64,000 bases of DNA from a virus (Duplodnaviria > Heunggongvirae > Uroviricota > Caudoviricetes). Within the stretch, counting starts at the first letter, position 1. Each line of letters starts with the position of its first letter. Of this stretch, positions 25,318 to 53,073 are shown in pieces. The notes under the pieces are model-generated. The model was given only the letters and a program-made list of their open reading frames with translations, searched no databases and was not told where the DNA came from. The stretch lies in IMG/VR virus record IMGVR_UViG_3300035701_000006, positions 71,267-135,266 of that record, one strand, 5' to 3'. A program made the position numbers and the translations under genes.

Positions 25318-25394
25318 TGGTACCCCCGGAGGGAATCGAACCCTCGCCTTGACGTTCGGAGCGTCATATGCAGGATCCACTACAACACGGGGGT
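25318..25394 (-). tRNA. tRNA-Arg (CCG)
   Basis: reverse complement folds with acceptor ACCCCCG/CGGGGGT, anticodon stem TGACG/CGTCA, loop CTCCGAA, T loop TTCGATT, CCA. Confidence 0.55.
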
Positions 25395-25701
25395 GATCGA
25401 CCTTGCGTTTGCGGAATTCTGCCTCGCATTCTACACCTAGCATGCAAGACATGCAATTCTCCCAGAGCTCGCCGCCAAAGCAGGGTGGTTTGGGAGTGCT
25501 TCTCATAGATCGTATGGAATGCTGTCACCGCACTCGTCGCAGACCATCTCGGTGCCGCACTGCGTGCGCTTCAGGTGCTTGCAGACAGGCCCATCGTTTG
25601 CAAGGCACTCTCCCATGAGTCGTGCGCCTGCCAGCCTCGACGGAAGCCGACCTGCGAGAAGCTGCATCTTGACGGCTTCCCTACGCCTTCGTCTTGTCAT
25701 A

Positions 25702-25778
25702 TGGTGCCCCAGGCAGGACTCGAACCTGCCGCCTAGAAGTTAGGAACTTCTCGCTCTATCCAAATGAGCTACTGGGGC
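25702..25778 (-). tRNA. tRNA-Arg (CCU)
   Basis: acceptor GCCCCAG/CTGGGGC, anticodon stem AGAAG/CTTCT, loop TTCCTAA, T arm GCAGG-TTCGAGT-CCTGC, CCA. Confidence 0.65.
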
Positions 25779-25819
25779 GTGTTTTTGTCATCTTGATTGC
25801 CGCTATCTAGATCTCTGGC

Positions 25820-26149
25820 TTAATACCTCTTAATGGCTTCGCGGCGAGCGCGTCCTGCAGCGAGGATTCCAGCCTCTTGCAGCGCGTTGATCTTGTCGCG
25901 TAGCCCCCTATTCTCATCGCACAGCTCAGCGTGCTGCCTGATGTACTCCATTCCACCTTTTGCCATCTCCGCAAGGGCTTCATCTTTTCGAGCGACCTCT
26001 GCCGCCAATCGCAGATTGGCGATGTTGAGGTCGCCGCATTTCGTTTGCAGCGCGTCGCGCTGCGCGGTCAGAGTATGTATTACCAACTGCAAGGCGGCTT
26101 TCTCCCGCATAAGATCAGAGATCACTTCGGCAGAGCTCTTGGCGGTCAT
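25820..26149 (-). CDS. coiled-coil hypothetical protein
   Basis: 109-aa ORF. Confidence 0.35.
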   Translation of the reverse strand: MTAKSSAEVISDLMREKAALQLVIHTLTAQRDALQTKCGDLNIANLRLAAEVARKDEALAEMAKGGMEYIRQHAELCDENRGLRDKINALQEAGILAAGRARREAIKRY

Positions 26150-26152
26150 GCC

Positions 26153-26395
26153 TTACCTCGTTTTCTTCTCGATGTACTTGATGGCATCGCCGACGGTCTG
26201 GATCTTCTTGGCGGCTTCTTCCGAGATGAAGATGCCGAACGTGTCCTCTGTGCTCATTATGAGTTCGGCGGTGTCGAGTGAATCGGCACCCAGGTCGTTC
26301 ACGAGTGATTTTTCGCGGGAGACTACTTCCTTCGGGACGTTGAGCTGATTGTGGATGATTTTGATGACCTTCTGCTCAATATCGTCTGGCTTCAT
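26153..26395 (-). CDS. acyl carrier protein
   Basis: VNDLGADSLDTAELIM matches the ACP phosphopantetheine-attachment DSL motif; 80 aa. Confidence 0.65.
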   Translation of the reverse strand: MKPDDIEQKVIKIIHNQLNVPKEVVSREKSLVNDLGADSLDTAELIMSTEDTFGIFISEEAAKKIQTVGDAIKYIEKKTR

Positions 26396-26477
26396 GTTTC
26401 CTCCGGGGCACCACCGGGCGGCTGGTGGAGTACCAGCCGCCCTCCGCTGCTCCGGTGTACAGCCGCAAGATTAAGAG

Positions 26478-26836
26478 TGGTGGACCCGGGGGGAATCGAA
26501 CCCCCGTCTCACAGAGTTTTTCCTGGCCGTCCACGCTCATCTCCGCCGTCTGCGATTTAGCGTCTTCCCGGCTATGACAGGCGGCCTACTTTACCGGGGA
26601 TCGACGGGCGATTTGTTTTCTCATCCCGTTTCGGCTCGCAATACCTCGGGACCAGCCGAGCATTAACGTCCCAAATCACTGACTATCGGCGTATGTCAGG
26701 CGGGACGGACCGCTTTACGCGGCCATGAGCACGGGCTCAGCAGTTGTGTTTGCCTGACATTTTTAACGAGGCCAAGTCAGGCGGTCCTCGGAGCGCAGGC
26801 TTCGGATTCCCTCCATGATCGATGCCGATCGGGCCC
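26478..26836 (-). ncRNA. ssrA: tmRNA (ssrA-like)
   Basis: tRNA-like ends GGGCCCG...GGGGGTTCGATTCCCCCCGGGTCCACCA; internal UUGGCCUCGUUAAAAAUG segment resembles the E. coli tmRNA pre-tag region; possible tag frame GCA AAC ACA ACU GCU GAG CCC GUG CUC AUG GCC GCG UAA (ANTTAEPVLMAA). Confidence 0.6.
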
Positions 26837-26936
26837 AAATGCTACGGCTGTGGACAACGTCGACGGGCTGGTGCGCTCGCCGTGCTAGGCACGTGGCTGG
26901 CGACTGTTTCCGTCTTGTCTACAGCGGATTTCAAGA

Positions 26937-27015
26937 TGGTCGGGGCGACAGGATTCGAACCTGCGGCCTCTTGCGCCCAAGGCAAGCGCTCTAAACCAAG
27001 CTGAGCTACGCCCCG
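26937..27015 (-). tRNA. tRNA-Pro (UGG)
   Basis: acceptor CGGGGCG/CGCCCCG, D GCTC/GAGC, anticodon stem CTTGC/GCAAG, loop CTTGGGC, T arm GCAGG-TTCGAAT-CCTGT, CCA. Confidence 0.7.
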
Positions 27016-27020
27016 TTTTG

Positions 27021-27829: not shown

Positions 27830-27921
27830 TGGTGGGCCTGGCAGGATTCGAACCTGCATCGCGCACTAATCTGGTGCTTGCGGGTTATAGGTCCGCCATG
27901 TTACCGTTACACTACAGGCCC
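27830..27921 (-). tRNA. type-II (long variable arm) tRNA, anticodon loop CCUAUAA, identity unresolved (UAU?)
   Basis: acceptor GGGCCTG/CAGGCCC, D GTGT/ACAT, variable hairpin GCAC-CAGATTA-GTGC, T arm GCAGG-TTCGAAT-CCTGC, CCA; A31-C39 mismatch and C33. Confidence 0.45.
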
Positions 27922-28023: not shown

Positions 28024-28097
28024 TGGTGCCCGCTAGAGGAGTCGAACCCCTGTTTCCAGCGTGTGATGCTGGCGGCCGACCGTTAGCCTAAGCGGGC
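28024..28097 (-). tRNA. tRNA-Val (CAC)
   Basis: acceptor GCCCGCT/AGCGGGC, anticodon stem CCAGC/GCTGG, loop ATCACAC, T loop TTCGACT, CCA. Confidence 0.65.
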
Positions 28098-28171
28098 TGG
28101 TACCCGATAGAGGAATCGAACCTCTGTAACCAGCTTGTAAGGCTGGCGCACTACCATTATGCTAATCGGGC
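28098..28171 (-). tRNA. tRNA-Val (UAC)
   Basis: acceptor GCCCGAT/ATCGGGT, anticodon stem CCAGC/GCTGG, loop CTTACAA, T arm AGAGG-TTCGATT-CCTCT, CCA. Confidence 0.7.
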
Positions 28172-28942: not shown

Positions 28943-29028
28943 TGGTGGACGCGAGAGGATTCGAACCTCCACCCCTTTGACGGGACCAGGTCCTGAGCCT
29001 GGCGCGGCTGCCGTTACGCCACGCGTCC
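28943..29028 (-). tRNA. tRNA-Leu (CAG), type II
   Basis: acceptor GGACGCG/CGCGTCC, anticodon stem CCAGG/CCTGG, loop CTCAGGA, variable hairpin CCC-GTCAAA-GGG, T loop TTCGAAT, CCA. Confidence 0.65.
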
Positions 29029-29038: not shown

Positions 29039-29115
29039 TGGTGCCCACGGCGGGATTCGAACCCGCAGGAACCTGATCCTAAGTCAGGCGCGTCTGCCAG
29101 TTGCGCCACGCGGGC
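29039..29115 (-). tRNA. tRNA with anticodon UAG (Leu codon family) but short variable arm
   Basis: acceptor GCCCGCG/CGTGGGC, anticodon stem CCTGA/TCAGG, loop CTTAGGA, 5-nt variable, T arm GCGGG-TTCGAAT-CCCGC, CCA. Confidence 0.5.
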
Positions 29116-31011: not shown

Positions 31012-31089
31012 TGGTGCCCCCGGAGGGATTCGAACCCACACATTCCCAGGTTTGAGCTGGGCGACTCCTGCCAATTGGTCTACGAGGGC
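31012..31089 (-). tRNA. tRNA with anticodon CAA (Leu codon family), short variable arm
   Basis: acceptor GCCCTCG/CGGGGGC, anticodon stem CCCAG/CTGGG, loop CTCAAAC, T loop TTCGAAT, A73, CCA. Confidence 0.5.
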
Positions 31090-33642: not shown

Positions 33643-33718
33643 TGGTAGCCCGGACGGGAGTCGCACCCGTATCTCCAGGTTGAAGGCCTGGTATCCTACT
33701 GTTAGAATGGACCGGGCC
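33643..33718 (-). tRNA. tRNA-Glu (UUC)
   Basis: acceptor GGCCCGG/CCGGGCT, anticodon stem CCAGG/CCTGG, loop CCTTCAA (C33), T loop TGCGACT, CCA. Confidence 0.5.
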
Positions 33719-34167: not shown

Positions 34168-34623
34168 ATGAGATTTGCACAACGGCTGGATGAAGCTCTC
34201 GGCACTCGACCCCTTTCACTATTAAAGGGGGCTCTCGTAGTTCCGGTCCCGAATCCCCGTGTGAACCTCCCCGAGAAAGGCCTCCAGATTCGCGGCGAAT
34301 ATCACATCACGATCCTAGAACCAGATGAGGTTGGCGATCTCCAGGACAGGAAAGGGTGGCGACCTGAACAGCTTGCTGAGAAATTCGTCGGTCAGGTCGT
34401 CCCAGGAGAGCCGAAATATGGCTGTCTTGGACGGCAGGTAGAGCCTGGAAAGGATGCTGATGATCCGAGCGCGAACGCAGTCTATTTCATCGTAGTGGAC
34501 TGGTCGGAGGCGCAGGATCTAAGGCATCGTCTTGGCTTCGAACCGACTGACCTACATGTCACCGTCGGATTTCGTCAGAAGGATATTCACGGCGTACCGA
34601 AGGACGCGTCGACTTGCCTCTAG
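34168..34623 (+). CDS. hypothetical protein (shares RLDEALG N-terminal motif with the 52585 ORF)
   Basis: 151-aa ORF. Confidence 0.35.
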   Translation: MRFAQRLDEALGTRPLSLLKGALVVPVPNPRVNLPEKGLQIRGEYHITILEPDEVGDLQDRKGWRPEQLAEKFVGQVVPGEPKYGCLGRQVEPGKDADDPSANAVYFIVVDWSEAQDLRHRLGFEPTDLHVTVGFRQKDIHGVPKDASTCL

Positions 34624-35195: not shown

Positions 35196-35270
35196 TGGTA
35201 CCCCCGGGAGGAGTTGCACCTCCACTACGAATTTAGAGGATTCGCAGGCTATCTATTACCGAACGGGGGC
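35196..35270 (-). tRNA. tRNA-Arg (UCU)
   Basis: acceptor GCCCCCG/CGGGGGT, anticodon stem CGAAT/ATTCG, loop CCTCTAA (C33), T arm GGAGG-TGCAACT-CCTCC, CCA. Confidence 0.5.
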
Positions 35271-35437: not shown

Positions 35438-37081
35438 TTACTCGCTGTCGGCCTTTTCCTTCCCGAACGTGTCCAGGTCGATCTTGCGGACTTCCTCGAC
35501 CTGGTTCGAAGTGCCGTTCACGACCAGCGGGATGTACCTGAGCACCGAGTCCGACCACCCACTGACGTAGTGAACGTCCGGGTAACCCGCCGGGGCGACC
35601 CAATCGCGGTACGGCGCGATGTTGATGAGCACGGCCTTGGCCTTCGGGCTGCGGGTGCGCTTGTACTTCTCCCACGCCGTAAGGAACCCGCTGCCGGCCC
35701 AGTCCTCGCTGTCCGTGATTCCGATGAACGTGTCGATCACGAGGCCGCGGTGTCCGAGGTACTCGATCGGAGCACCGAGGTTCGTCCCGCCGATCGCTAC
35801 GCCAATCTTGGCCGCGATGTCCATGATCGTCGAGCGGCGGCTGAGACCCTTGGTCAGGTCGGTCCTGACCCCGTTCTCGAACGGCAGAAGGATGACGTTC
35901 TCCTGCTTCTTGAACAGCGCCGCTCCGAACAGACCCGCGATGTCGCACATGCGTGTGCTGCCGCGGTCGGAAACCTGGCTGCTCATCGAGCCGGAGACGT
36001 CGTTCGAGATGCAGACGCGGCCCGGAAGAGTCTCGACGTTCTCGAAGCTCTGCTCGAGGGCATCCACGATGGCGTCCTTGACGGCCTGATGGCCCTGGAA
36101 CGCCTGGAACGCGTTGAAGAAGCGGAACGGGAACTGCTTGCTCTTGCGGACGTTCTCCTTGTCAGAGAGCTTGCCCGCAACCAGCTTGGCGACTGCGTCG
36201 TCCTTGAAGACGTCGTGCCGCTCCATCGTGGCGAGGTTCCGTAGGAGGGCCATGTACGGCATGCCCGCCAGCAGCGCCTTCCAGATGTTCACGGTCATCT
36301 TCTTGACGGACGGGACGACGACCTCCCACGGGAGGCGGTACTTCACGACGAGGTCGATGATCTGAGCCTCGTCGGTCGAGCGCTTGAGCGTCTCAAGTGC
36401 CCAGACGAGCGGATTGGTCGGAGAGGGACTGGCACCGACGCTCTGCCAACCCTTGACCAGCCATCCGAACAGCTCTTCCTGGGCGCGGTTGACAGGCCGG
36501 GGATGTGCCATCCGGATGATGTCGCGGAGCGTAATGTCTTCGGAGCGTGCCGAGCCGTACTTCACGGCGTGGTACTCCGAGATGTGCTGCAGCCAGCGCT
36601 TGACGGCATCCCGTGCCTCGCCGCCGAGACCCTTGCGGATCTCGCCCGTGCGGCAGAGCGACACGAACTCGCGCAGGTCGTCGGGGGTCTTGACAACGTG
36701 CTGGAAGGCCGCCCGGAAGTTAGTCTTCTTGGCGGTCTTCTCGTGCGCGGAGAGCACGGTGAGGCCCACGACGGGGGCCAGCTTCATGAGGCCCTTTGTG
36801 CGGGCGTAGACGAGGGCCTTCGCGAGGAAGGTGGGGTCCTTCTCCGCCATCTTGGTGATGACGTCCACCGTTTCCTTGGCGAGGGTCTTCTCGTCCGCGT
36901 AGAAGGTGTTCCCGAGCGTGTTGGTCGTGAGGACTGCGAGCGTGTCCTCTTCGATCGACCGGTCGAATGTGGGGAATCCCTCCTTGTTGAGCTTCGTGGC
37001 CTTCCGGTAGGTCTTGGAGATCTGAAGGCCCGTGCGGGGTGACGCCGGAGACGTGCCGAACAGCTTGCTTGCCCTGGCCAT
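35438..37081 (-). CDS. rsr: Ro60/Rsr ortholog (TROVE domain plus vWA domain)
   Basis: TTNTLGNTFYADEKTL resembles the TROVE GGxYYASExKL segment; C-terminal vWA with MIDAS motif DVSGSMSS; AGGAGG Shine-Dalgarno before ATG (MARASKLF). Confidence 0.75.
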   Translation of the reverse strand: MARASKLFGTSPASPRTGLQISKTYRKATKLNKEGFPTFDRSIEEDTLAVLTTNTLGNTFYADEKTLAKETVDVITKMAEKDPTFLAKALVYARTKGLMKLAPVVGLTVLSAHEKTAKKTNFRAAFQHVVKTPDDLREFVSLCRTGEIRKGLGGEARDAVKRWLQHISEYHAVKYGSARSEDITLRDIIRMAHPRPVNRAQEELFGWLVKGWQSVGASPSPTNPLVWALETLKRSTDEAQIIDLVVKYRLPWEVVVPSVKKMTVNIWKALLAGMPYMALLRNLATMERHDVFKDDAVAKLVAGKLSDKENVRKSKQFPFRFFNAFQAFQGHQAVKDAIVDALEQSFENVETLPGRVCISNDVSGSMSSQVSDRGSTRMCDIAGLFGAALFKKQENVILLPFENGVRTDLTKGLSRRSTIMDIAAKIGVAIGGTNLGAPIEYLGHRGLVIDTFIGITDSEDWAGSGFLTAWEKYKRTRSPKAKAVLINIAPYRDWVAPAGYPDVHYVSGWSDSVLRYIPLVVNGTSNQVEEVRKIDLDTFGKEKADSE

Positions 37082-37137
37082 TCTTGGCCCTCCTTGATGG
37101 AGCCGGGGCAAAAGCCCCAGCAGTTTCCTGGAACGTG

Positions 37138-39689: not shown

Positions 39690-39764
39690 TGGCTCCCCCA
39701 GGAGGACTCGAACCTCCATTACTCGGGTAACAACCGAGTCGCCTACCAATTGGCGGACAGGGGA
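39690..39764 (-). tRNA. tRNA-Asn (GUU)
   Basis: acceptor TCCCCTG/TGGGGGA, D CGCC/GGCG, anticodon stem CTCGG/CCGAG, loop TTGTTAC, T arm GGAGG-TTCGAGT-CCTCC, CCA. Confidence 0.65.
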
Positions 39765-39765: not shown

Positions 39766-39840
39766 TGGAGCCGACGGTGGGATTCGCACCCACGTTCTCC
39801 TGCTTACGGGGCAGGTGCATGGCTTCTATGCTACGTCGGC
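39766..39840 (-). tRNA. tRNA-Thr (CGU)
   Basis: acceptor GCCGACG/CGTCGGC, D GCAT/ATGC, anticodon stem CCTGC/GCAGG, loop CCCGTAA (C33), T arm GTGGG-TGCGAAT-CCCAC, CCA. Confidence 0.55.
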
Positions 39841-40548: not shown

Positions 40549-40624
40549 TGGAGGGCGCAGCCGGAGTCGCACCGGCCTACATCCGATTTGCAATCGGAGG
40601 CATTTGCTGCTCTGCCATACGCCC
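40549..40624 (-). tRNA. tRNA-Cys (GCA)
   Basis: acceptor GGGCGTA/TGCGCCC, anticodon stem TCCGA/TCGGA, loop TTGCAAA, T arm GCCGG-TGCGACT-CCGGC, CCA. Confidence 0.6.
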
Positions 40625-40785: not shown

Positions 40786-40870
40786 TGGCGGAAAGCCGGG
40801 GAGTCGAACCCCGAAGCCTCATCGGCTCTCGACCTCCAATCGAGTGGGCTTGCCAATGCCCAAGCTTTCC
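40786..40870 (-). tRNA. tRNA-Ser (GGA), type II
   Basis: acceptor GGAAAGC/GCTTTCC, D GGGC/GCCC, anticodon stem CTCGA/TCGAG, loop TTGGAGG, variable hairpin, T arm CGGGG-TTCGACT-CCCCG, CCA. Confidence 0.7.
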
Positions 40871-40885
40871 GTAGTAGATAATTCA

Positions 40886-41527: not shown

Positions 41528-41533
41528 GGGCCT

Positions 41534-44445: not shown

Positions 44446-44531
44446 TGGCGGCGAGTGGGAGAGTCGGACTCCCAAGCCTGTGACGGCTTCCCGCTTCGAA
44501 CGGGGTGGGCTTGCCAATGCCCAAACTCGCC
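44446..44531 (-). tRNA. tRNA-Ser (CGA), type II
   Basis: acceptor GGCGAGT/ACTCGCC, D GGGC/GCCC, loop TTCGAAG, variable hairpin, T arm GGGAG-TCCGACT-CTCCC, CCA. Confidence 0.6.
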
Positions 44532-44616: not shown

Positions 44617-44702
44617 TGGCGGCGAGTGCGCGAGTTGAACGCGCAAACCCTTACGGGCTTCCCGCTTCAAACGGGGTGGGCTTGCCAATGCCCAAACTCG
44701 CC
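44617..44702 (-). tRNA. tRNA-Ser (UGA), type II
   Basis: paralog of Ser(CGA): same acceptor and D arm, loop TTTGAAG, T arm GCGCG-TTCAACT-CGCGC, CCA. Confidence 0.6.
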
Positions 44703-44703: not shown

Positions 44704-44777
44704 TGGTGCCGGCCCCGGGAATCGCACCCGGACTAGCGGCTTATGAGACCGCCGCACTACTATTATGCTAGGCCGGC
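44704..44777 (-). tRNA. tRNA-Met (CAU), elongator-type
   Basis: acceptor GCCGGCC/GGCCGGC, D GCAT/GTGC, anticodon stem GCGGT/GCCGC, loop CTCATAA, T arm CCGGG-TGCGATT-CCCGG, CCA. Confidence 0.6.
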
Positions 44778-45035: not shown

Positions 45036-45109
45036 TGGGGCCGCCCCCCGGATTCGAACCGAGATCGTCCGGATACAGGCCGGAGGTCCTACCGTTGAAC
45101 GAGGGCGGC
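45036..45109 (-). tRNA. tRNA-Thr (UGU)
   Basis: acceptor GCCGCCC/GGGCGGC, D GTTC/GGAC, anticodon stem TCCGG/CCGGA, loop CCTGTAT (C33), T loop TTCGAAT, CCA. Confidence 0.55.
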
Positions 45110-45567: not shown

Positions 45568-45642
45568 TGGAGCCGGCAGCGGGGATCGAACCCGCGATCT
45601 CCTCTTTACCAAAGAGGTGCACTACCGCTGTGCTATGCCGGC
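45568..45642 (-). tRNA. tRNA-Thr (GGU)
   Basis: acceptor GCCGGCA/TGCCGGC, D GCAC/GTGC, anticodon stem CCTCT/AGAGG, loop TTGGTAA, T arm GCGGG-TTCGATC-CCCGC, CCA. Confidence 0.7.
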
Positions 45643-45643: not shown

Positions 45644-45717
45644 TGGTGCCCACGCGAGGAGTTGCGCCTCGGTTTCATCCATGTCACGGATGCGGCCTTC
45701 TGTTAGCCGACGCGGGC
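45644..45717 (-). tRNA. tRNA-Val (GAC)
   Basis: acceptor GCCCGCG/CGTGGGC, anticodon stem CATCC/GGATG, loop GTGACAT, T arm CGAGG-CGCAACT-CCTCG, CCA. Confidence 0.55.
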
Positions 45718-47582: not shown

Positions 47583-47660
47583 TGGTCGGAGTGGAGGGAT
47601 TTGAACCCATCGGCCTTCTGGTCCCGAACCAGACGCTCTGCCAAGCTGAGCTACACTCCG
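47583..47660 (-). tRNA. tRNA-Pro (CGG)
   Basis: acceptor CGGAGTG/CACTCCG, D GCTC/GAGC, anticodon stem TCTGG/CCAGA, loop TTCGGGA, T loop TTCAAAT, CCA. Confidence 0.6.
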
Positions 47661-48433: not shown

Positions 48434-48507
48434 TGGGGTGAGCGCCCAGATTCGCACTGGGATTCGCAGAGCCACAGTCTGCTGTCCTACTATTGGACGA
48501 CGCCCAC
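48434..48507 (-). tRNA. tRNA-His (GUG)
   Basis: 5' G plus acceptor, D GTCC/GGAC, anticodon stem GCAGA/TCTGC, loop CTGTGGC, T arm CCCAG-TGCGAAT-CTGGG, C73, CCA. Confidence 0.65.
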
Positions 48508-48591
48508 ATTGATGTTTAGTCCGCCTCACTGGTTCTGCCCCAGTTTCTGGCCCTTATCAGGGGCCTGTTCTTCTATTGAACTAGAGGCGGG

Positions 48592-48783: not shown

Positions 48784-48860
48784 TGGTTGCGGGAGTGGGA
48801 ATCGGACCCACCACAGGAAGGTTATGAGCCTTCCCAGCCCACCAGGGTTATTCCCCGCGA
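48784..48860 (-). tRNA. tRNA-like with Met-type anticodon loop CUCAUAA, imperfect acceptor (possible pseudo-tRNA)
   Basis: anticodon stem GAAGG/CCTTC, T arm GTGGG-TCCGATT-CCCAC, CCA present, but acceptor strands do not pair cleanly. Confidence 0.35.
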
Positions 48861-48870: not shown

Positions 48871-48996
48871 GGGGCAATTGGCGAACAAGGATCTTTTAGC
48901 GTGCTGCTGTTACACTACTGACGGCTTTCGCCGTCAGCCGGGAGTTGCACCCGGACCACTCACTTTGCAGGTGAAGGAACCTCGTTCTGCAGCCCC
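48871..48996 (-). ncRNA. structured RNA unit b: permuted tRNA-Cys-like core inside conserved terminal helix
   Basis: between the terminal motifs: anticodon arm UUCAC-CUGCAAA-GUGAG, T arm CCGGG-UGCAACU-CCCGG, acceptor strands CUGACGG and CCGUCAG joined by a GAAA tetraloop, then D arm GUGU-AACAGCA-GCAC. Confidence 0.55.
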
Positions 48997-49095: not shown

Positions 49096-49168
49096 TCCCG
49101 GCGGGAGGTGCTGCCCCTCCACCCTCGGCTTCAAAGGCCGGTGTCCAGAGCTGCTAGACAACGCCGGG
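49096..49168 (-). tRNA. tRNA-like, possible Gln (UUG), atypical T loop, no CCA
   Basis: acceptor CCCGGCG/CGCCGGG, anticodon stem CGGC/GCCG, loop CTTTGAA, T arm GGAGG-GGCAGCA-CCTCC; strand assignment ambiguous. Confidence 0.3.
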
Positions 49169-49258: not shown

Positions 49259-49335
49259 TGGTGGACCCGACCGGCCTCGAACCGGCGAACCTCCTGCTTG
49301 CAAAGCAGGCGCTCTCCCAACTGAGCTACGGGCCC
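49259..49335 (-). tRNA. tRNA-Ala (UGC)
   Basis: acceptor GGGCCCG/CGGGTCC with G3-U70, D GCTC/GAGC, anticodon stem CCTGC/GCAGG, loop TTTGCAA, CCA. Confidence 0.65.
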
Positions 49336-49344: not shown

Positions 49345-49419
49345 TGGTGGAGACGCCGGGGGTCGAACCCGGATCTGCTGGTTGCGGACCAGCCATGTTA
49401 CCATTGTCACCACGTCCCC
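49345..49419 (-). tRNA. tRNA-Ala (CGC)
   Basis: acceptor GGGGACG/CGTCTCC with G3-U70, anticodon stem GCTGG/CCAGC, loop TCCGCAA (C33), T arm CCGGG-TTCGACC-CCCGG, CCA. Confidence 0.5.
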
Positions 49420-49595: not shown

Positions 49596-49671
49596 TGGTG
49601 GGCAGTAGTGGAGTCGGACCACTCTCTCCCGCTCTTCAGGCGGGCGCCTCGACCGCGATGGCTTACTGCCC
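49596..49671 (-). tRNA. tRNA-Phe (GAA)
   Basis: acceptor GGGCAGT/ACTGCCC, anticodon stem CCCGC/GCGGG, loop CTGAAGA, T arm AGTGG-TCCGACT-CCACT, CCA. Confidence 0.6.
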
Positions 49672-50213: not shown

Positions 50214-51086
50214 TCATACCGTGGGGAAGTCGAATACCTGTCCGCGCTGGACGAAACCGAGGAAGCCGTCGGCCTTCGGGTCCTGGGGTGGCTTCGGCTG
50301 GTAGTGGTACAGCCACATCTTCTTCTTGATGTCGGTAGGAAGCGTCTTGAGATCGTCGTAATGCGCGTGGACCTTGGAGTAATAGGGCGCAGTCTCGCAG
50401 TCGTGGAAGATCAGGTCAGCTGACTGGTAGAACTTCGTGATCTGGTTCGGACAGAACTGCGTATCCGTCGTGAAGAAGATCCGGGGGCCCTTCGCTATGA
50501 AAGGGTCACTGCTCTGGCTCCCCGCCTGTCCTGGCAAGCCAGATATGATCTGCGCCCTGACGCTGGGCGGGCGACGGATCATGCTGGTGCACTGCTGGAT
50601 CATGAGCCCGTAGCTGTGCGTGATCTTGAAGCCGCTCATGATGTGTACTGTCTGGACCGGCGTGAAGGAAATGTCCTCCCAGAAGAAACTGTTGTTGATG
50701 GGTACCGGCTGGCACTCGAAGTAGTCGGTGATGTTCATCACCTTCTCTTCTAGGCTCTCGAGCCCGCCGCACAGGCTGTGCTCCCAAAGCTCCTTCATGA
50801 GCTCCGGGACGCAGAACAGGAGAGGCCTCGGGTCGCCAGGCTTCTTGGTGAAGTAGCGGACGAACGCCAGGTACTCCATCCCGCCGATGTGGTCCGCGTG
50901 AAGGTGCGAGATGTAGGCGGCGTCGATGTTCCGCGCATCCAACCCCAGCTTGCCCAGGGCGAACCGAATGTCGCTCCCGCAGTCGATGAGAAGCCTCTTG
51001 CCCGAGGCGGCCTGCACGATTGCGTTGGATTGGAAGTATTCTTCCGTCGTGAACGCGCTGCCACATCCCGCAAAGATGAGCTTCAT
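50214..51086 (-). CDS. MBL-fold metallo-hydrolase (RNase Z/ElaC-like candidate)
   Basis: ISHLHADHIGG (HxHxDH zinc motif), 290 aa, within tRNA island. Confidence 0.6.
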   Translation of the reverse strand: MKLIFAGCGSAFTTEEYFQSNAIVQAASGKRLLIDCGSDIRFALGKLGLDARNIDAAYISHLHADHIGGMEYLAFVRYFTKKPGDPRPLLFCVPELMKELWEHSLCGGLESLEEKVMNITDYFECQPVPINNSFFWEDISFTPVQTVHIMSGFKITHSYGLMIQQCTSMIRRPPSVRAQIISGLPGQAGSQSSDPFIAKGPRIFFTTDTQFCPNQITKFYQSADLIFHDCETAPYYSKVHAHYDDLKTLPTDIKKKMWLYHYQPKPPQDPKADGFLGFVQRGQVFDFPTV

Positions 51087-51165: not shown

Positions 51166-51262
51166 ACATGCCGGGCGCTCTGCCATTGAGCTACCGCCGG
51201 ACTAAGCGTCCTTGTCAGGGCGCTTAGTCCGGTAGACAGGATTCGGACCTGTATCTCCCAGC
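51166..51262 (-). other. split or permuted tRNA-like fragment pair joined by a 12-bp hairpin
   Basis: minus RNA: anticodon-3' CUGGG, T arm ACAGG-UCCGAAU-CCUGU, then hairpin CCGGACUAAGCG...CGCUUAGUCCGG, then 5'-half CGG-UA-GCUC-AAUGGCA-GAGC-G-CCCGG. Confidence 0.4.
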
Positions 51263-51285
51263 TGTATCACCCCTCAGGAGCCCCT

Positions 51286-51316
51286 AAAAAGGCGCTGTTC
51301 ATTCAGCGCCTTTTGC
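51286..51316 (-). terminator. rho-independent terminator candidate after tRNA-Gln
   Basis: stem GGCGCUG/CAGCGCC with 7-nt loop followed by UUUUU on the minus strand (also T-run on plus strand). Confidence 0.5.
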
Positions 51317-51414: not shown

Positions 51415-51415
51415 A

Positions 51416-51489
51416 TGGCGGTGCCAACGGGAGTCGCACCCGTGACCTCTGCTCGACAGGCAGACGTGATCCTGTTTCACCATGGCACC
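51416..51489 (-). tRNA. tRNA-Asp (GUC)
   Basis: acceptor GGTGCCA/TGGCACC, D GTGA/TCAC, anticodon stem TCTGC/GCAGA, loop CTGTCGA, T arm ACGGG-TGCGACT-CCCGT, CCA. Confidence 0.65.
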
Positions 51490-52133
51490 TATTTGATCTT
51501 GTCCCATCTTTCGGCGGTTTCAGGCTTTATAGTGACAGAGCTCTTGTTGTTCTTTATTTCTTCGCGGGAGAAAACGTAAGCAATGTCCGTGAAAAGGTCG
51601 TATCCAACCATAAAATCAAAGTCTCCATCGTCATAACGTTTAAGGCTGCCTCTGCCATCTGAACATCTTAGCCTTATGAATGGGAGACCATACCTTTTAT
51701 CCTCGCTAGCCCATCTTACCTGTAGCTTTATTAGTTTGTTGCGTCTGATAATTAAGTCCAAACTTTCGTCGTCGAAAGCTGGTTCATAAACCTCGAATCC
51801 GTAAAGTGCGAGCCTGAATAGTACCGCTGCCTCAGCTATGCGGCCCTTTCTCTCGTTTGTCAATGGTTGATCTATGAAGAACTTGGACCGATTTCCTCGA
51901 TCCTTTGGGTGGTTCTTTTTACCACTAGCGGTGCCGCCGTCTTTGACTGCTTTGAGCTGTTCTTCCTTCGTTAACGGGTGATTTCGCAGCCACTTTATGG
52001 CTGTACCGTTGGACACTCCAAGCAATCGTGCGATTGTCTTGGTTGGCAGCCGTCCATTTTCTCTGAGTCGGATAGCGGATTCTTTCATATCGACCCCCTT
52101 TCTACGCTTATTTTTGCGTAGAAAGGGGGTCAA
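51489..52133 (-). CDS. HTH-domain protein with possible PD-(D/E)xK-like nuclease C-terminus
   Basis: TIARLLGVSNGTAIKWL HTH; FDDESLDLII...KLQVR acidic/Lys motif; 10-bp hairpin immediately upstream of start. Confidence 0.35.
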   Translation of the reverse strand: MTPFLRKNKRRKGVDMKESAIRLRENGRLPTKTIARLLGVSNGTAIKWLRNHPLTKEEQLKAVKDGGTASGKKNHPKDRGNRSKFFIDQPLTNERKGRIAEAAVLFRLALYGFEVYEPAFDDESLDLIIRRNKLIKLQVRWASEDKRYGLPFIRLRCSDGRGSLKRYDDGDFDFMVGYDLFTDIAYVFSREEIKNNKSSVTIKPETAERWDKIK

Positions 52134-52137
52134 GTAT

Positions 52138-52216
52138 GGGGCAATTGGCGATCAAGGAGACTGGCCTTTCGGCCGTTCATTGCCAAAGAATGAAGTAACC
52201 TCGATCTAGCAGCCCC
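52138..52216 (-). ncRNA. structured RNA unit d (minimal: anticodon-arm-like hairpin plus GNRA hairpin inside conserved terminal helix)
   Basis: 5' GGGGCUGCUAGAUCGAGGUUACUUC, hairpin UUCAUU-CUUUGGC-AAUGAA, GGCC-GAAA-GGCC, 3' CCUUGAUCGCCAAUUGCCCC. Confidence 0.5.
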
Positions 52217-52261
52217 AATATTTGTGGGAGCGCGTCTCCGCGCTCAACCGAATGTAGGTGA

Positions 52262-52388
52262 GGGCAATTGGCGAACAAGGCTCCTGTTTGGTGCTCTACC
52301 AATTGAGCTACCGGGCCGTAGTGGCCCAGGTGGGACTCGAACCCACAACCACCCGATTATGATTCGAAGTAACCTCGTTCTGCAGCCC
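52262..52388 (-). ncRNA. structured RNA unit e: permuted tRNA-Met-like core inside conserved terminal helix
   Basis: anticodon arm UUCGA-AUCAUAA-UCGGG, T arm GUGGG-UUCGAGU-CCCAC, acceptor strands CUGGGCC and GGCCCGG joined by a 5-nt loop, D arm GCUC-AAUUGGUA-GAGC, all between the two conserved terminal motifs. Confidence 0.55.
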
Positions 52389-52394
52389 TCAATT

Positions 52395-52468
52395 TGGCGG
52401 GCTCGGGAGGTTACGCTCCTCCGCTGCCGGTTTTGGAAACCAGCCGACTGCTGTTATCTTACGAGCCC
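52395..52468 (-). tRNA. tRNA-like with atypical T loop (AGCGUAA) and 9-nt anticodon loop containing CCA
   Basis: acceptor GGGCTCG/CGAGCCC, T stem GGAGG/CCTCC, G73, CCA. Confidence 0.3.
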
Positions 52469-52584
52469 GAGCACCATGCCGGTATTGCTCCGGCTCCTCC
52501 ACGTTGGGAACGTGGCGTCCCACTTTTAGACGAATGGTGCGAATGTTTCTGATTCTCAAAGATACTGAAATAAAGGAGAGACCC

Positions 52585-52998
52585 ATGGCGTTCGAGCAGA
52601 GGCTTGACGAGGCTCTCGGCATCCAGACTGAGGGCTGGAAGCAGAATCTCGGAATCGCAGGGATGGGTCTCGCAGCCGCCGCTGGTTATGGGAAAGGTCC
52701 CGTCGGAAAAGCAACAGCTCCGATGATTATGCCTCCAGCAATCCAGCAAGTTGAAAAGAAGGAATTTACCATTGAGGTCGATGGGAACGAAAAGAAGGTT
52801 AGCAAAAATGAGGCCGATACGCTCGTGAAGAAAGGCGTCAAGTTTATTGTCAAGGACGCTCCGAACATGCCGACTGCTGGAGGCCTAGCCGGCGCGACAT
52901 TCACGCTAGAAGACCCTCAGATCAATTCCACCCAGGATTGGCTCGAATTCAACCAGGGGCAGTATCCTTCCACAGGCGCTGGCATCTCTGAGAAGTGA
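52585..52998 (+). CDS. hypothetical protein
   Basis: AAGGAGAG Shine-Dalgarno before ATG (MAFEQRLDEALG). Confidence 0.4.
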   Translation: MAFEQRLDEALGIQTEGWKQNLGIAGMGLAAAAGYGKGPVGKATAPMIMPPAIQQVEKKEFTIEVDGNEKKVSKNEADTLVKKGVKFIVKDAPNMPTAGGLAGATFTLEDPQINSTQDWLEFNQGQYPSTGAGISEK

Positions 52999-52999
52999 T

Positions 53000-53073
53000 T
53001 GGAGCGGCCGACCGGAATCGCACCGGCATTCCCAGTTTGGAAAACTGGCGTCTTACTGTTGGACGACGGCCGC
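53000..53073 (-). tRNA. tRNA-Gly (UCC)
   Basis: acceptor GCGGCCG/CGGCCGC, anticodon stem CCAGT/ACTGG, loop TTTCCAA, T arm GCCGG-TGCGATT-CCGGT, U73, CCA. Confidence 0.65.

What the first reader, a model, noticed from the sequence alone, without database searches (positions are those of the whole stretch)
25318..53073. Exceptionally large, nearly complete tRNA set with recurrent non-canonical features
About 44 tRNA or tRNA-like genes are present, 43 on the minus strand. All three Ala tRNAs carry the G3-U70 identity pair. Ser, Leu and Tyr type-II tRNAs are present, as are His with C73 and Gln with U1-A72.

At least eight genes have C instead of the near-universal U at position 33:
- Leu(GAG)
- Glu(UUC)
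- Arg(UCU)
- Thr(CGU)
- Thr(UGU)
- Ala(CGC)
- Ala(GGC)
- the type-II UAU-like tRNA

Three tRNAs with Leu-family anticodons (UAG, UAA, CAA) have short variable arms. A CUU-anticodon tRNA has a 13-nt variable hairpin. Many T loops read UGCAACU or UGCGAUU rather than UUCGAAU. No clear Ile, Trp or initiator tRNA was found by eye.

These features suggest either altered decoding properties or a substantial pseudo-tRNA fraction.
Basis: seen in the sequence. Interest (0 to 1): 0.65.

Follow-up and report, generated by a model that had tools for sequence, protein, structure and literature searches.

The report
Complete phage tRNA set, unusual elbows
A previously undescribed giant bacterial virus carries its own full, non-redundant set of 47 transfer RNAs, and more than a third of them replace a near-universal nucleotide pair at the corner of the molecule with a matched alternative pair, which marks them as working genes built to an unusual plan, not decayed copies.

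Summary
ARAGORN, Rfam, a relaxed cloverleaf scan and a covariance model built from this lineage together find 47 tRNA genes. Forty-six lie on the minus strand (24916-53073) and one on the plus strand (20658-20732). There is also a tmRNA, a YrlA-like Y RNA and a Ro60 gene. All 45 possible sense anticodons without A34 occur exactly once. A second, initiator-like CAU and an amber-suppressor CUA complete the set. C33 is confirmed in all eight named tRNAs. The odd T loops are G55 (18 tRNAs) or C55 (6). G55 always comes with 'AG' instead of 'GG' in the D loop (A18·G55 replacing G18·U55; p = 1e-10). Orthologues in four related metagenomic contigs switch both sides together. Stems are intact: 98% of cells pair, and 324 of 399 differing stem pairs are compensatory. 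The pseudo-tRNA reading is therefore rejected. Altered decoding remains untested for three or four odd tRNAs. The best reading is a self-sufficient tRNA pool of a novel jumbo phage. Its non-canonical U-turn and elbow nucleotides are structurally compensated, possibly to escape enzymes that recognise universal tRNA nucleotides.

The parts
20658..20732 (+). tRNA with CUA anticodon (amber-suppressor type), canonical U33, GG/UUC elbow, CCA encoded
   Evidence: ARAGORN; Rfam 70.1 bits; model R1 78 bits
24916..24990 (-). tRNA-Arg(UCG), A18/G55 elbow (D loop AAAAGATA, T loop UGCAAGU)
25318..25394 (-). tRNA-Arg(CCG), canonical
25702..25778 (-). tRNA-Arg(CCU), canonical
26478..26836 (-). tmRNA, tag peptide AEPVLMAA
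   Evidence: ARAGORN; Rfam RF00023 97.2 bits (gathering 47)
26937..27015 (-). tRNA-Pro(UGG), canonical
27830..27921 (-). tRNA with UAU anticodon, C33, Ile-type acceptor stem GGGCCUG/CAGGCCC-A73, 22-nt variable arm (class I, 77 nt, in the relative L070)
   Evidence: Rfam 58.1 bits
27929..28014 (-). tRNA-Leu(GAG), class II, C33 (also C33 in L070 and L002)
28024..28097 (-). tRNA-Val(CAC), canonical elbow
28098..28171 (-). tRNA-Val(UAC), canonical
28943..29028 (-). tRNA-Leu(CAG), class II, canonical
29039..29115 (-). tRNA-Leu(UAG), class I (5-nt variable loop), Leu-type D arm, A73
   Evidence: class I also in L070
29116..29189 (-). tRNA-Leu(UAA), class I, A18/G55 elbow, no CCA encoded
31012..31089 (-). 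tRNA-Leu(CAA), class I; orthologues in L070/L071 with compensatory changes
   Evidence: Rfam 30.7 bits; R1 30.8 bits
33253..33327 (-). tRNA-Lys(UUU), canonical elbow
33643..33718 (-). tRNA-Glu(UUC), C33 and A18/G55; missed by ARAGORN
   Evidence: Rfam 45.9 bits; sequence; R1 60.2 bits; C33 kept in L070 and L071
33720..33795 (-). tRNA-Glu(CUC), U33 here, C33 in L070 (the only difference found between the two genes)
35196..35270 (-). tRNA-Arg(UCU), C33 and A18/G55; just downstream of the Ro60 gene
   Evidence: R1 62.4 bits
35438..37111 (-). Ro60 orthologue (TROVE + Ro60 vWA domains); absent from the relative L070
   Evidence: Pfam; tblastn; blastn
39690..39764 (-). tRNA-Asn(GUU), canonical
39766..39840 (-). 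tRNA-Thr(CGU), C33 and A18/G55
40549..40624 (-). tRNA-Cys(GCA), A18/G55
   Evidence: R1 61.7 bits
40696..40785 (-). tRNA-Ser(GCU), class II, C55
40786..40870 (-). tRNA-Ser(GGA), class II, canonical elbow
44446..44531 (-). tRNA-Ser(CGA), class II, C55
44534..44607 (-). tRNA-Arg(GCG) (G34 in place of the usual bacterial A34/I34), A18/G55
44617..44702 (-). tRNA-Ser(UGA), class II
44704..44777 (-). tRNA-Met(CAU), elongator type, A18/G55
45036..45109 (-). tRNA-Thr(UGU), C33 (kept in L070 and L074)
45568..45642 (-). tRNA-Thr(GGU), canonical
45644..45717 (-). tRNA-Val(GAC), T loop CGCAACU (C54 G55), D loop AACAGAA; missed by ARAGORN and Rfam
   Evidence: R1 53.8 bits, E 2e-13, held out of training; orthologues
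47583..47660 (-). tRNA-Pro(CGG), canonical elbow
48434..48507 (-). tRNA-His(GUG), C73, T at -1, A18/G55 (GG/UUC in L070 and L074)
48520..48590 (-). tRNA-Ile(GAU), C1-G72, T loop GGCAGAA, D loop AAUAGAA, no CCA; missed by ARAGORN and Rfam
   Evidence: R1 49 bits, E 5e-12; identical gene in L074; 9 compensatory pairs against L070
48590..48664 (-). tRNA-Gly(GCC), canonical elbow
48784..48859 (-). initiator-like tRNA(CAU): CGCGGGG...CCCGCA-A-CCA, C1xA72 mismatch, A11-U24, C55
   Evidence: R1 30 bits
48929..48993 (-). tRNA-like remnant lacking a D arm (GCA loop, UGCAACU T loop)
   Evidence: R1 23.2 bits
49005..49083 (-). tRNA-Pro(GGG), C55
49096..49168 (-). tRNA with UUG anticodon, acceptor C1-G72/C2-G71/C3-G70 and A73 (not Gln-like), T loop GGCAGCA, no CCA
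   Evidence: R1 46.4 bits, E 3e-11; similar gene in L074
49170..49253 (-). tRNA-Tyr(GUA), class II, A18/G55
49259..49335 (-). tRNA-Ala(UGC), G3-U70, canonical
49345..49419 (-). tRNA-Ala(CGC), G3-U70, C33
49420..49493 (-). tRNA-Ala(GGC), G3-U70, C33, C55, no CCA
49596..49671 (-). tRNA-Phe(GAA), C55
51233..51310 (-). weak tRNA-like remnant (D arm and T arm only)
   Evidence: R1 18.2 bits
51341..51414 (-). tRNA-Gln(CUG), U1-A72, G73, A18/G55
51416..51489 (-). tRNA-Asp(GUC), G55, D loop AACAGGA
52255..52392 (-). YrlA-like Y RNA (Ro-binding stem plus tRNA-like T arm, acceptor-like stem and D arm)
   Evidence: Rfam RF02553 54.1 bits, E 2e-9, below gathering score 69; alignment
52395..52468 (-). tRNA-Trp(CCA), G73, T loop AGCGUAA (A54 G55, U58), D loop AACAGCA
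   Evidence: Rfam 39.7 bits; sequence; R1 41.1 bits
52470..52540 (-). tRNA-Gly(CCC), T loop AGCAAUA (A54 G55 A58), no CCA
   Evidence: Rfam 45.7 bits; alignment
53000..53073 (-). tRNA-Gly(UCC), A18/G55 (GG/UUC in L070)

Best explanation
The region is the translation-support island of a previously uncharacterised jumbo phage.

Contents:
- 47 structurally intact tRNA genes, 41 of them with CCA encoded.
- A tmRNA.
- A Ro60/YrlA module.

The anticodon set:
- Every one of the 45 sense anticodons that do not start with A occurs exactly once.
- An initiator-like CAU and an amber-suppressor CUA complete it.
- All 61 codons can therefore be read by Watson-Crick or simple G·U/U·G pairing.
- No inosine-34 is needed (Arg GCG stands in for ACG).
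- No lysidine is needed (UAU reads AUA).
- The phage can thus keep translating if the host tRNA pool is depleted or destroyed.

The non-canonical nucleotides are compensated variants, not decay.
- In 18 tRNAs the inner elbow pair G18·U55 is replaced by A18·G55. Thirteen of these T loops read UGCRA, one reads CGCAA, and four are more divergent (AGCAA, AGCGU, GGCAG x2). YGNRA plus an intercalating adenosine is the combination used by T loops outside tRNA.
- The outer pair G19-C56 and the pair G53-C61 are kept in all 47.
- Eight tRNAs have C instead of U at the anticodon-loop U-turn position 33.

Proposed reason (inferred, not shown): both changes remove nucleotides that host enzymes and tRNA-targeting nucleases rely on. 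These nucleotides are U33, T54 and Psi55. The phage pool would then be a poor substrate while remaining usable by synthetases, EF-Tu and the ribosome.

What is shown and what is inferred:
- Shown: gene integrity, completeness of the set, 18/55 covariation, and conservation in relatives.
- Inferred: expression, charging, and the selective reason.
For: Inventory and completeness:
- Searches give the genes.
- One search shows 45 of 45 non-A34 anticodons present and no sense codon uncovered.

Integrity:
- 98.1% of stem cells pair against 61% in shuffles.
- 44 of 47 tRNAs have at most one mismatch, C56 is in 47/47, G53-C61 in 47/47 and R37 in 47/47.

Selection on structure:
- Between the window and L070/L074 isoacceptors, 324 double and 43 single pairing-preserving changes stand against 32 broken pairs.

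Elbow covariation:
- In the window, AG with G55 occurs 16 times and AG with non-G55 never. GG with G55 occurs twice, and both D loops also contain AG. GG with non-G55 occurs 29 times. Fisher p = 1e-10.
- The same rule holds in 1057 unrelated phage tRNAs, where 15 of 16 G55 tRNAs have AG.
- It also holds in the single G55 tRNA of Myxococcus phage Mx1.
- Orthologues switch both sides together. His, Arg GCG, Thr GGU, Pro GGG, Gly GCC and Gly UCC switch between GG/U55 and AG/G55; Ser GCU switches between GG/C55 and AG/G55.

Structural precedent:
- Non-tRNA T loops are YGNRA with an intercalating adenosine (10.1101/2022.12.26.521914).

C33:
- It is kept across orthologues with diverged stems in Glu UUC, Leu GAG, Thr UGU and Arg UCU.
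- It recurs for the same anticodons in unrelated phages: Val GAC 5/9, Thr UGU 4/21, Leu GAG 4/43.

Lineage enrichment:
- G55 has an odds ratio of 40 and C33 an odds ratio of 5 against the background.

Context:
- The relative is a 235-kb IMG/VR viral contig with a syntenic array.
- The array is interspersed with a Ro60 gene, a 2H phosphoesterase and a fragment with a tail-sheath domain.

Literature:
- Phage tRNAs are proposed or shown to escape tRNA-targeting defences (PMC10264068; PMC11555353).
- A T-loop-cutting tRNase exists, CdiA-CT E479 (PMC9086364).
Against: - No expression, processing, aminoacylation or modification data exist.
- The host is unknown, so phage and host tRNAs cannot be compared at nuclease sites.
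- C33 and U33 interchange freely between close relatives. Glu CUC differs only at position 33, and Thr CGU, Ala GGC, Val GAC and Lys UUU also toggle. That fits near-neutrality as well as an arms race.
- C33 and G55 do not co-occur preferentially: 3 of the 8 C33 tRNAs have G55.
- Half of the tRNAs keep the canonical elbow, so any nuclease aimed at it would still hit them.
- The background sample was chosen by a shared Leu T-arm 20-mer and scanned with ARAGORN only. ARAGORN misses loops that lack T54, so background G55 is somewhat underestimated.
Confidence: 0.55

Rival explanations
1. Near-neutral drift. The tRNAs are functional. A18·G55, C55 and C33 are simply tolerated alternatives that spread in this lineage through relaxed constraint, mutation bias and gene conversion among the many tRNA genes. 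They serve no evasion purpose.
For: - U33/C33 and GG-U55/AG-G55 states toggle between close relatives, sometimes as the only difference.
- The array is mosaic, with 70-100% identity to the relative, which fits frequent recombination.
- The same variants occur at low frequency in many unrelated phages.
- YGNRA T loops are intrinsically stable folds.
Against: - The roughly 40-fold enrichment of G55 in this lineage needs a lineage-specific cause.
- C33 is retained while the flanking stems have turned over (Glu UUC, Thr UGU, Leu GAG) and recurs on the same anticodons in unrelated phages.
Confidence: 0.3
2. Altered decoding. Some of the odd tRNAs change the meaning or efficiency of particular codons. 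Candidates are UAU with a class-II arm, CUU with an extra arm, UUG with a C1-G72/A73 acceptor, the CUA suppressor and the C33 tRNAs. Possible effects are AUA, AAG or CAA read with another amino acid, or TAG read through.
For: - The acceptor of the UUG tRNA lacks U1-A72 and G73, which I recall as the bacterial Gln identity set. The canonical Gln form sits at the same slot in L070.
- A well-formed CUA tRNA is present.
- The UAU and CUU tRNAs have architectures not seen in their counterparts in relatives.
Against: - TAG terminates about a third of long ORFs, and in-frame TAG junctions are no more common than TGA ones.
- Each of these anticodons is the only decoder of its codon in a set that is otherwise exactly complete. 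A reassignment would therefore act genome-wide.
- The class-I Leu tRNAs keep the Leu-type D arm and A73, and class-I Leu tRNAs are common in phages.
Confidence: 0.08
3. A substantial fraction are pseudo-tRNAs or decoys that do not take part in translation. They could be decaying duplicates or nuclease sponges.
For: - Ten of the 47 do not reach the Rfam tRNA threshold.
- Two tRNA-like remnants exist.
Against: - Stems are intact and compensated.
- No anticodon is duplicated and none is missing, which decay would not produce.
- The low Rfam scores are explained by class-II arms and non-U54/U55 loops. The lineage model scores all 47 at 27.6-78 bits.
Confidence: 0.04
4. The features mirror the host. 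The unknown host's own tRNAs carry A18/G55 and C33, and the phage genes are recent host copies.
For: The host is unknown. No known phage or reference genome matches the window.
Against: - Canonical and variant forms of the same isoacceptor alternate among close relatives that presumably share hosts.
- G55 with AG also occurs in Mx1, a phage isolated on Myxococcus, and in 11 unrelated viral contigs.
Confidence: 0.03

Closest known systems
Mycobacteriophage cluster C1 (Bixzunavirus, e.g. Bxz1, Tonenili) tRNA-tmRNA-Ro island
   Same: The inventory matches: a large tRNA array, a tmRNA, a tRNA(CUA) annotated as a stop suppressor, a Ro-like RNA-binding protein, and glycosyltransferases and a thymidylate kinase nearby. 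It is also the data set behind the nuclease-evasion hypothesis (PMC10264068).
   Different: - There is no nucleotide similarity, and Ro60 is only about 25% identical.
- The stretch of Tonenili examined has 28 tRNAs, uses Arg(ACG), has no G55 and has only 2 C33.
- Its set is not the complete 45-anticodon complement.
Myxococcus phage Mx1 tRNA array with embedded TROVE gene
   Same: It carries the best Ro60 match (29% identity). Its array holds at least 37 tRNAs, with class-I Leu tRNAs whose D loops resemble those here. Its one G55 tRNA has an AG D loop.
   Different: G55 occurs in 1 of 37 and C33 in 0 of 37. It uses Arg(ACG). No other window protein tested matched any phage in the collection.
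Jumbo phages with tRNAs for all 20 amino acids (e.g. Xanthomonas phage XacN1, 56 tRNA genes)
   Same: A jumbo phage with a tRNA complement that covers all amino acids (PMC5852040).
   Different: Here the set is non-redundant and exhaustive at the anticodon level, and a large share of the tRNAs have non-canonical elbow or U-turn nucleotides. I did not examine the XacN1 tRNAs.
T-loop motif with its receptor outside tRNA (FMN and cobalamin riboswitches, rRNA, RNase P)
   Same: The motif is a YGNRA loop (UGNRA 89%, CGNRA 11%) with an adenosine that intercalates and contacts the G at loop position 2. The phage tRNAs show UGCRA or CGCAA loops together with an A where G18 normally sits.
   Different: This occurs in a tRNA elbow, where the standard is UUCRA with G18. 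The three-dimensional equivalence is inferred from sequence only.
Eukaryotic tRNAs with non-canonical U-turn or T-loop positions
   Same: A54·A58 occurs in eukaryotic initiator and some Ala tRNAs (PMC7566577). From my own knowledge, C33 occurs in some eukaryotic initiator tRNAs. Gly(CCC) here has A54...A58.
   Different: Those are single isoacceptors of cellular genomes. Here the variants are spread over many elongator isoacceptors of a bacterial virus.

Membership tests
tRNA (Rfam RF00005 / cloverleaf) | Cloverleaf with 7, 3-4, 5 and 5 bp stems and 7-nt anticodon and T loops | tested here: met
   98.1% of 630 stem cells pair. Of the 47, 29 have no mismatch, 15 have one and 3 have two.
tRNA (Rfam RF00005 / cloverleaf) | Score at or above the Rfam gathering threshold (29 bits) | tested here: inconclusive
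   37 of 47 reach it. The ten that do not are the 4 class-II Ser tRNAs, Arg UCU, Cys, the initiator-like tRNA, Val GAC, Ile GAU and UUG. The lineage model R1 scores all 47 at 27.6-78 bits, E <= 1e-5.
Canonical bacterial elongator tRNA | U33 at the anticodon-loop U-turn | tested here: not met
   C33 is present in 8 of 47.
Canonical bacterial elongator tRNA | G18 with U55, and T54 | tested here: not met
   Position 55 is U in 23, G in 18 and C in 6. Position 54 is T in 42, A in 2, G in 2 and C in 1. G55 always comes with an AG D loop.
Canonical bacterial elongator tRNA | G19-C56 outer elbow pair, G53-C61, purine 37 | tested here: met
   C56 is in 47/47, G53-C61 in 47/47 and R37 in 47/47. A G follows A18 or G18 in the D loops.
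tmRNA (RF00023) | Covariance-model score above gathering, plus a tag reading frame | tested here: met
   97.2 bits against a threshold of 47. ARAGORN gives the tag AEPVLMAA*.
Ro60 / YrlA ribonucleoprotein | TROVE and vWA domains in the protein | tested here: met
   PF05731 at 85.3 bits (cut-off 23) and PF25045 at 42.4 bits (cut-off 27.7).
Ro60 / YrlA ribonucleoprotein | YrlA RNA: Ro-binding stem plus a tRNA-like module, scoring above the Rfam gathering threshold | tested here: inconclusive
   RF02553 scores 54.1 bits, below the gathering score of 69, but with E = 2e-9. The alignment is full length and shows a T arm, an acceptor-like stem and a D arm.
Non-tRNA T-loop motif (YGNRA with intercalating A) | Loop sequence YGNRA and an adenosine partner | tested here: met
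   14 of the 18 G55 loops are UGCRA or CGCAA. All 18 have an AG in the D loop.
Non-tRNA T-loop motif (YGNRA with intercalating A) | Three-dimensional intercalation of the A between loop positions 4 and 5 | not testable with these tools
   This needs a solved structure or chemical probing.
Pseudo-tRNA / decaying copies | Broken stems, uncompensated substitutions, redundant or missing anticodons | tested here: not met
   Only two remnants fit this description, at 48929-48993 and 51233-51310.
Stop-codon-recoded phage (TAG reassigned) | Suppressor tRNA present | tested here: met
   tRNA(CUA) at 20658-20732.
Stop-codon-recoded phage (TAG reassigned) | Genes interrupted by in-frame TAG, and TAG avoided as a terminator | tested here: not met
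   TAG ends 37 of 97 long stop-to-stop ORFs. In-frame TAG junctions number 15, against 13 for TGA.
Nuclease-evading phage tRNAs (van den Berg et al. 2023) | Phage tRNA differs from the host isoacceptor at a known cleavage or recognition site | not testable with these tools
   The host is unknown. No match was found in reference genomes or in known phages.

The most novel reading that the evidence does not exclude
This phage lineage has rebuilt the two U-turn positions of tRNA (33 and 55, the latter with its partner 18) across much of a complete, non-redundant tRNA set. The result would be a pool that works on the host ribosome but escapes activities that recognise universal tRNA nucleotides: T-loop or anticodon-loop nucleases, whether host- or phage-encoded, and TruB, TrmA and TrmH. 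This would allow wholesale replacement of the host tRNA pool. The A18·G55 elbow would then be a natural, functional tRNA architecture without T54/Psi55 that I did not find described.
Probability: 0.25. Interest if true: 0.85.

Novelty: new variant of a known kind. Interest (0 to 1): 0.66.

Why it matters
G18·Psi55 and U33 are among the most conserved nucleotides in biology. A natural set of tRNAs in which matched orthologues alternate between G18/U55 and A18/G55, and between U33 and C33, provides ready-made pairs for experiment. Such pairs could test what these nucleotides and their modifications (Psi55, m5U54, Gm18) contribute to folding, charging, decoding and recognition by nucleases.

A complete 45-anticodon set that needs neither inosine nor lysidine is a blueprint for a host-independent tRNA pool. 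That is relevant to the current idea that phage tRNAs exist to survive tRNA-targeting immunity, and to the design of orthogonal tRNAs.

There is also a practical point. ARAGORN missed six and Rfam ten of these 47 genes, so surveys of phage tRNAs undercount exactly the unusual ones.

Tried and rejected
- Near-identity and distant DNA searches and three protein searches against 50,697 phage records gave nothing, apart from distant Ro60 matches.
- The Ro60 protein found no relative in IMG/VR.
- The exact Ro60 product is not on record.
- A generic Leu T-arm 20-mer did not retrieve the relative. It did yield 62 unrelated tRNA-rich viral contigs, which I used as background.
- The Ser D-arm 20-mer and the glycosyltransferase protein did retrieve relatives.
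- A 34-mer of Arg(GCG) found nothing in 185,579 reference genomes, so the host remains unknown.
- TAG, TGA and TAA recoding was tested by ORF statistics and rejected.
- A diversity-generating retroelement next to the reverse transcriptase was considered. The only repeat is a tandem protein repeat without adenine-specific differences.
- Literature searches for A18/G55 or C33 in phage tRNAs found no description.
- I considered reading the 22-nt arm of the UAU tRNA as the true anticodon arm, because its loop CAGAUUA contains GAU. I rejected this because its stem has only 4 bp and the reading gives A33.
- I did not run a generic genome-wide pattern for G55 T arms, because the expected number of chance matches was in the hundreds.

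Full report
INVENTORY

ARAGORN reports 41 tRNAs and one tmRNA. Forty of the tRNAs lie on the minus strand between 24916 and 53073. One, with a CUA anticodon, lies on the plus strand at 20658-20732.

Rfam at gathering thresholds confirms the tmRNA (97.2 bits) and 35 tRNAs. It adds two that ARAGORN missed: Glu(UUC) and Gly(CCC). With permissive filters it adds Trp(CCA) at 52395-52468. It also reports a YrlA-like Y RNA at 52255-52392 (54.1 bits, E = 2e-9, below the gathering score of 69).

Synteny with a related contig suggested further genes. Reading the sequence and a relaxed cloverleaf scan gave three more:
- Ile(GAU) at 48520-48590
- a UUG tRNA at 49096-49168
- Val(GAC) at 45644-45717

I built a covariance model from 30 class-I tRNAs of the window. 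None of the six genes that ARAGORN missed was in the training set. Run without filters, the model recovers all 47 genes. The held-out genes score 41-60 bits (E <= 1e-9). The model adds only two weak tRNA-like remnants (48929-48993 and 51233-51310), the tRNA-like module of YrlA and the T arm of the tmRNA.

THE SET IS COMPLETE AND NON-REDUNDANT

The 47 anticodons comprise all 45 sense anticodons that do not begin with A, each exactly once. To these are added a second CAU and a CUA. No sense codon is left without a Watson-Crick or G·U/U·G reader.

Arg CGN codons are served by GCG, UCG and CCG, not by ACG. AUA is served by UAU, not by a third CAU.

The second CAU (48784-48859) has the acceptor CGCGGGG...CCCGCA-A-CCA, with a C1xA72 mismatch and an A11-U24 pair. 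From my own knowledge these are features of bacterial initiator tRNA. All three carry unusual T loops (GGCAGAA, AGCGUAA, UCCGAUU), which probably hid them. Forty-one of the 47 genes encode CCA.

C33 is present in exactly the eight tRNAs listed. Each has a 7-nt loop; seven are closed by a fully paired 5-bp stem, and the UAU tRNA has one A31xC39 mismatch. No alternative register restores U33.

The following also hold:
- G3-U70 in all three Ala tRNAs
- C73 in His
- U1-A72/G73 in Gln(CUG)
- class-I architecture of Leu UAG, UAA and CAA

The 'UGCAACU/UGCGAUU' T loops are a substitution at position 55. That position is U in 23 tRNAs, G in 18 and C in 6. C56 and G53-C61 are invariant in all 47.

THE ELBOW COVARIES

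Every G55 tRNA has 'AG' where the D loop normally has G18-G19. In the window the counts are:
- AG with G55: 16
- AG with non-G55: 0
- GG with G55: 2 (both D loops also contain AG)
- GG with non-G55: 29

Fisher's exact test gives p = 1e-10.

The same rule holds elsewhere. In 1057 tRNAs from 62 unrelated viral contigs, 15 of 16 G55 tRNAs have AG, whereas 995 of 1022 U55 tRNAs have GG. The single G55 tRNA of Myxococcus phage Mx1 also follows it.

Four related metagenomic contigs were compared: a 235-kb IMG/VR genome with a syntenic, mosaic array, and three shorter contigs. In these, isoacceptors switch both sides together. His, Arg GCG, Thr GGU, Pro GGG, Gly GCC and Gly UCC alternate between GG/UUC and AG/UGC; Ser GCU alternates between GG/UCC and AG/UGC. 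In His the acceptor, D stem and anticodon stem are unchanged while the D loop and T arm switch.

Outside tRNA, T loops have the consensus YGNRA (UGNRA 89%, CGNRA 11%). They take an intercalating adenosine that contacts the G at position 2 (10.1101/2022.12.26.521914). The phage combination of UGCRA or CGCAA loops with A18 is that same pairing, transplanted into the tRNA elbow. Rarer loops here have precedents or partial precedents:
- AGCAA has A54...A58, as in eukaryotic initiator and Ala tRNAs (PMC7566577).
- GGCAG resembles an rRNA-type GGAAG loop mentioned.
- AGCGU would allow an A54/U58 swap.

I infer, but cannot show, that the three-dimensional elbow is preserved.

NOT PSEUDOGENES

In the 30 aligned class-I tRNAs, 98.1% of stem cells form standard pairs, against 61% in shuffles and 39-47% with slid partners. 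Across all 47, 29 have no stem mismatch, 15 have one and 3 have two.

I made 66 isoacceptor comparisons between the window and the relatives L070 and L074. In these, 399 stem pairs differ:
- 324 differ by changes on both sides that keep pairing
- 43 differ by one-sided changes that keep pairing
- 32 have a non-pair in one of the two genes

Ile(GAU), which neither standard tool detects, differs from its L070 orthologue by nine compensatory pairs spread over all four stems. It is identical to the L074 copy.

An independent assembly from a different sample is 99.97% identical over 17 kb, and all 24 tRNAs in the overlap are identical. Assembly error is therefore excluded. An anticodon set with no gap and no duplicate is also not what decay produces.

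HOW UNUSUAL IT IS

| Feature | Window | Background phage tRNAs | Odds ratio | p |
|---|---|---|---|---|
| C33 | 17% | 4.0% | 5 | 8e-4 |
| G55 | 38% | 1.5% | 40 | 8e-18 |
| C55 | 13% | 1.8% | 8 | 4e-4 |

The relatives show the same pattern: L070 has 7 C33 and 18 G55 among 42 tRNAs, and L074 has 4 C33 and 15 G55 among 24.

There are two caveats. The background contigs were selected by a shared 20-mer, and they were scanned with ARAGORN alone. ARAGORN misses loops without T54, so background G55 is somewhat underestimated. Using only the ARAGORN-detected genes of the window (12 of 41 with G55) the enrichment remains very large.

The two closest known phages have almost none of these features. Mx1 has 0 C33 and 1 G55 in 37 tRNAs. 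Mycobacteriophage Tonenili has 2 C33 and 0 G55 in 28.

C33 is biased towards certain anticodons across unrelated phages: Val GAC 5/9, Thr UGU 4/21, Leu GAG 4/43. In this lineage it is retained in Glu UUC, Leu GAG, Thr UGU and Arg UCU although their stems have turned over. It also toggles in Thr CGU, Ala GGC, Glu CUC, Val GAC and Lys UUU. In Glu CUC it is the only difference between the window and L070.

THE CLASS-I 'LEU' tRNAs

Leu UAG and UAA carry the D arm U8-G9-GCG-CAACU(G/A)GCAGA-CGC and A73. From my own knowledge this closely resembles the D arm of bacterial tRNA-Leu, and bacterial LeuRS does not require the long variable arm. They are class I in L070 too, with compensatory changes.

Class-I tRNAs with Leu anticodons are common in phages. 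They make up 79 of 143 in the background, against 2 of 64 for Ser, and they occur in Mx1. This feature is therefore ordinary for phages and gives no reason to suspect recoding.

WHAT REMAINS ODD

- The UAU tRNA has a typical Ile acceptor stem but a 22-nt variable arm. Its counterpart in L070 is an ordinary 77-nt class-I tRNA.
- The CUU tRNA has A8, a 3-nt connector and an extra hairpin. It scores only about 31 bits and has no orthologue in the relatives.
- The UUG tRNA has C1-G72, C2-G71, C3-G70 and A73. L070 has a canonical U1-A72/G73 Gln tRNA at the same slot, while L074 shares the odd form.
- The CUA tRNA is well formed. TAG nevertheless ends about a third of long ORFs, and in-frame TAG junctions are no commoner than TGA ones. 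Tonenili also annotates a tRNA-Stop(cta).

CONTEXT

No window DNA and none of three large proteins matches any of 50,697 phage records. The relative is a 235-kb viral contig in IMG/VR.

Between the tRNA genes lie:
- a Ro60 orthologue, absent from the relative together with YrlA
- a 2H 'Swiss Army Knife' phosphoesterase
- methyltransferases and glycosyltransferases
- an SPFH protein
- an Apyc1-like metallo-beta-lactamase protein
- a PD-(D/E)XK protein with a helix-turn-helix domain
- a fragment with a tail-sheath domain

The overall inventory of tRNA array, tmRNA, CUA tRNA and Ro protein parallels mycobacteriophage cluster C1 and Mx1. That parallel exists without detectable sequence relationship beyond Ro60 at 25-29% identity.

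MECHANISM

Shown:
- an intact, complete, non-redundant tRNA complement
- 41 of 47 genes with CCA encoded
- a compensated alternative elbow in 18 tRNAs and C33 in 8
- the same features maintained in relatives

Inferred:
- The genes are co-transcribed and processed by host enzymes.
- They are charged by host synthetases.
- They let the phage translate independently of the host tRNA pool and of TadA and TilS.

More speculative is the reason for the variants. Replacing U33 and T54/U55 (with G18) would remove nucleotides used by anticodon nucleases, by T-loop tRNases and by TruB, TrmA and TrmH. Supporting context from the literature:
- CdiA-CT E479 cuts between T and Psi in the T loop (PMC9086364).
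- Phage tRNAs are proposed to escape anticodon nucleases through loop mutations (PMC10264068).
- Phage tRNAs have been shown to rescue phages from retron-Eco7, PrrC and PARIS (PMC11555353).

The main rival is near-neutral drift with gene conversion. The frequent toggling fits it equally well. The strong lineage enrichment and the anticodon-specific recurrence of C33 argue against pure neutrality.

VERDICT

The pseudo-tRNA reading is rejected, and altered decoding is unproven. A large phage tRNA array is a known kind of thing. What is new is the exactly complete 45-anticodon design and the widespread, covarying A18·G55 elbow, for which I found no description in the searchable literature.

Noticed in passing
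window 20658-20732 (+): A well-formed tRNA with a CUA (amber-suppressor) anticodon is the only tRNA on the plus strand. ORF statistics give no sign of TAG recoding. Mycobacteriophage Tonenili annotates a similar tRNA-Stop(cta).
   Followed up: partly
window 52255-52392 (-) and 35438-37111 (-): A YrlA-like Y RNA (54 bits, below the Rfam threshold) and a Ro60 orthologue lie 15 kb apart inside the array. Both are absent from the 235-kb relative.
   Followed up: partly
window 9856-11334 (+), with 6535-9048, 9052-9726 and 11306-12961: A reverse transcriptase (RVT_1) lies in the same frame as the two ORFs upstream, separated from them by TAA and TAG. The downstream ORF holds a 2 x 111-nt tandem repeat (12365-12592, 92% identical). 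That repeat is a protein repeat, not a DGR template/variable pair. The type of RT was not determined.
   Followed up: partly
window 21068-23081 (+): A nicotinate phosphoribosyltransferase is followed by an isochorismatase-family (nicotinamidase-like) protein, a possible NAD salvage pair.
   Followed up: no
window 54552-57605 (+): A 1017-aa protein carries a LAGLIDADG-type intein and a C-terminal Calx-beta domain, with weak tail-fibre similarity.
   Followed up: no
window 51489-52133 (-); the array as a whole compared with L001/L003: A PD-(D/E)XK nuclease with an N-terminal helix-turn-helix domain sits between tRNA genes and looks like a homing endonuclease. Identity of the array to its relative is mosaic, 70-100%, including 2 kb at 100% (40786-42792). 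This suggests frequent exchange of tRNA segments.
   Followed up: partly
window 34168-34623 (+) and 50214-51086 (-): A 2H 'Swiss Army Knife' phosphoesterase (possible RNA-end healing) and an Apyc1-like metallo-beta-lactamase protein (possible anti-Pycsar or RNase Z-like function) lie inside the array.
   Followed up: no
window 48434-48508 (-); L070, L074 and background loci: tRNA-His has C73 but a T at position -1, so no G-1 is encoded. The same holds in the relatives and in 16 of 28 tRNA-His genes of other viral contigs.
   Followed up: partly
background loci L004-L069; L079 (Mx1): Class-I (short variable arm) tRNAs with Leu anticodons are common in phages: 79 of 143, against 2 of 64 for Ser. 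C33 is concentrated in Val(GAC), where 5 of 9 have it, and it also occurs in Tonenili.
   Followed up: partly
window 48929-48993 (-) and 51233-51310 (-): Two tRNA-like remnants. The first has an acceptor, a GCA anticodon-like arm and a UGCAACU T arm but no D arm. The second has only a D arm and a T arm.
   Followed up: partly
window 49096-49168 (-); L074 6172-6245: The only UUG-anticodon tRNA has a C1-G72/C2-G71/C3-G70/A73 acceptor instead of the U1-A72/G73 of Gln tRNAs. The relative L070 has a canonical Gln(UUG) at the same position.
   Followed up: partly
L070, L071, L074: ARAGORN missed 14 further tRNAs in the relatives. All have non-T54 loops or other unusual features (CGCGCUU, AGCAUUA, GGCAGCA and others). 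Standard annotation therefore undercounts tRNAs in this lineage.
   Followed up: yes
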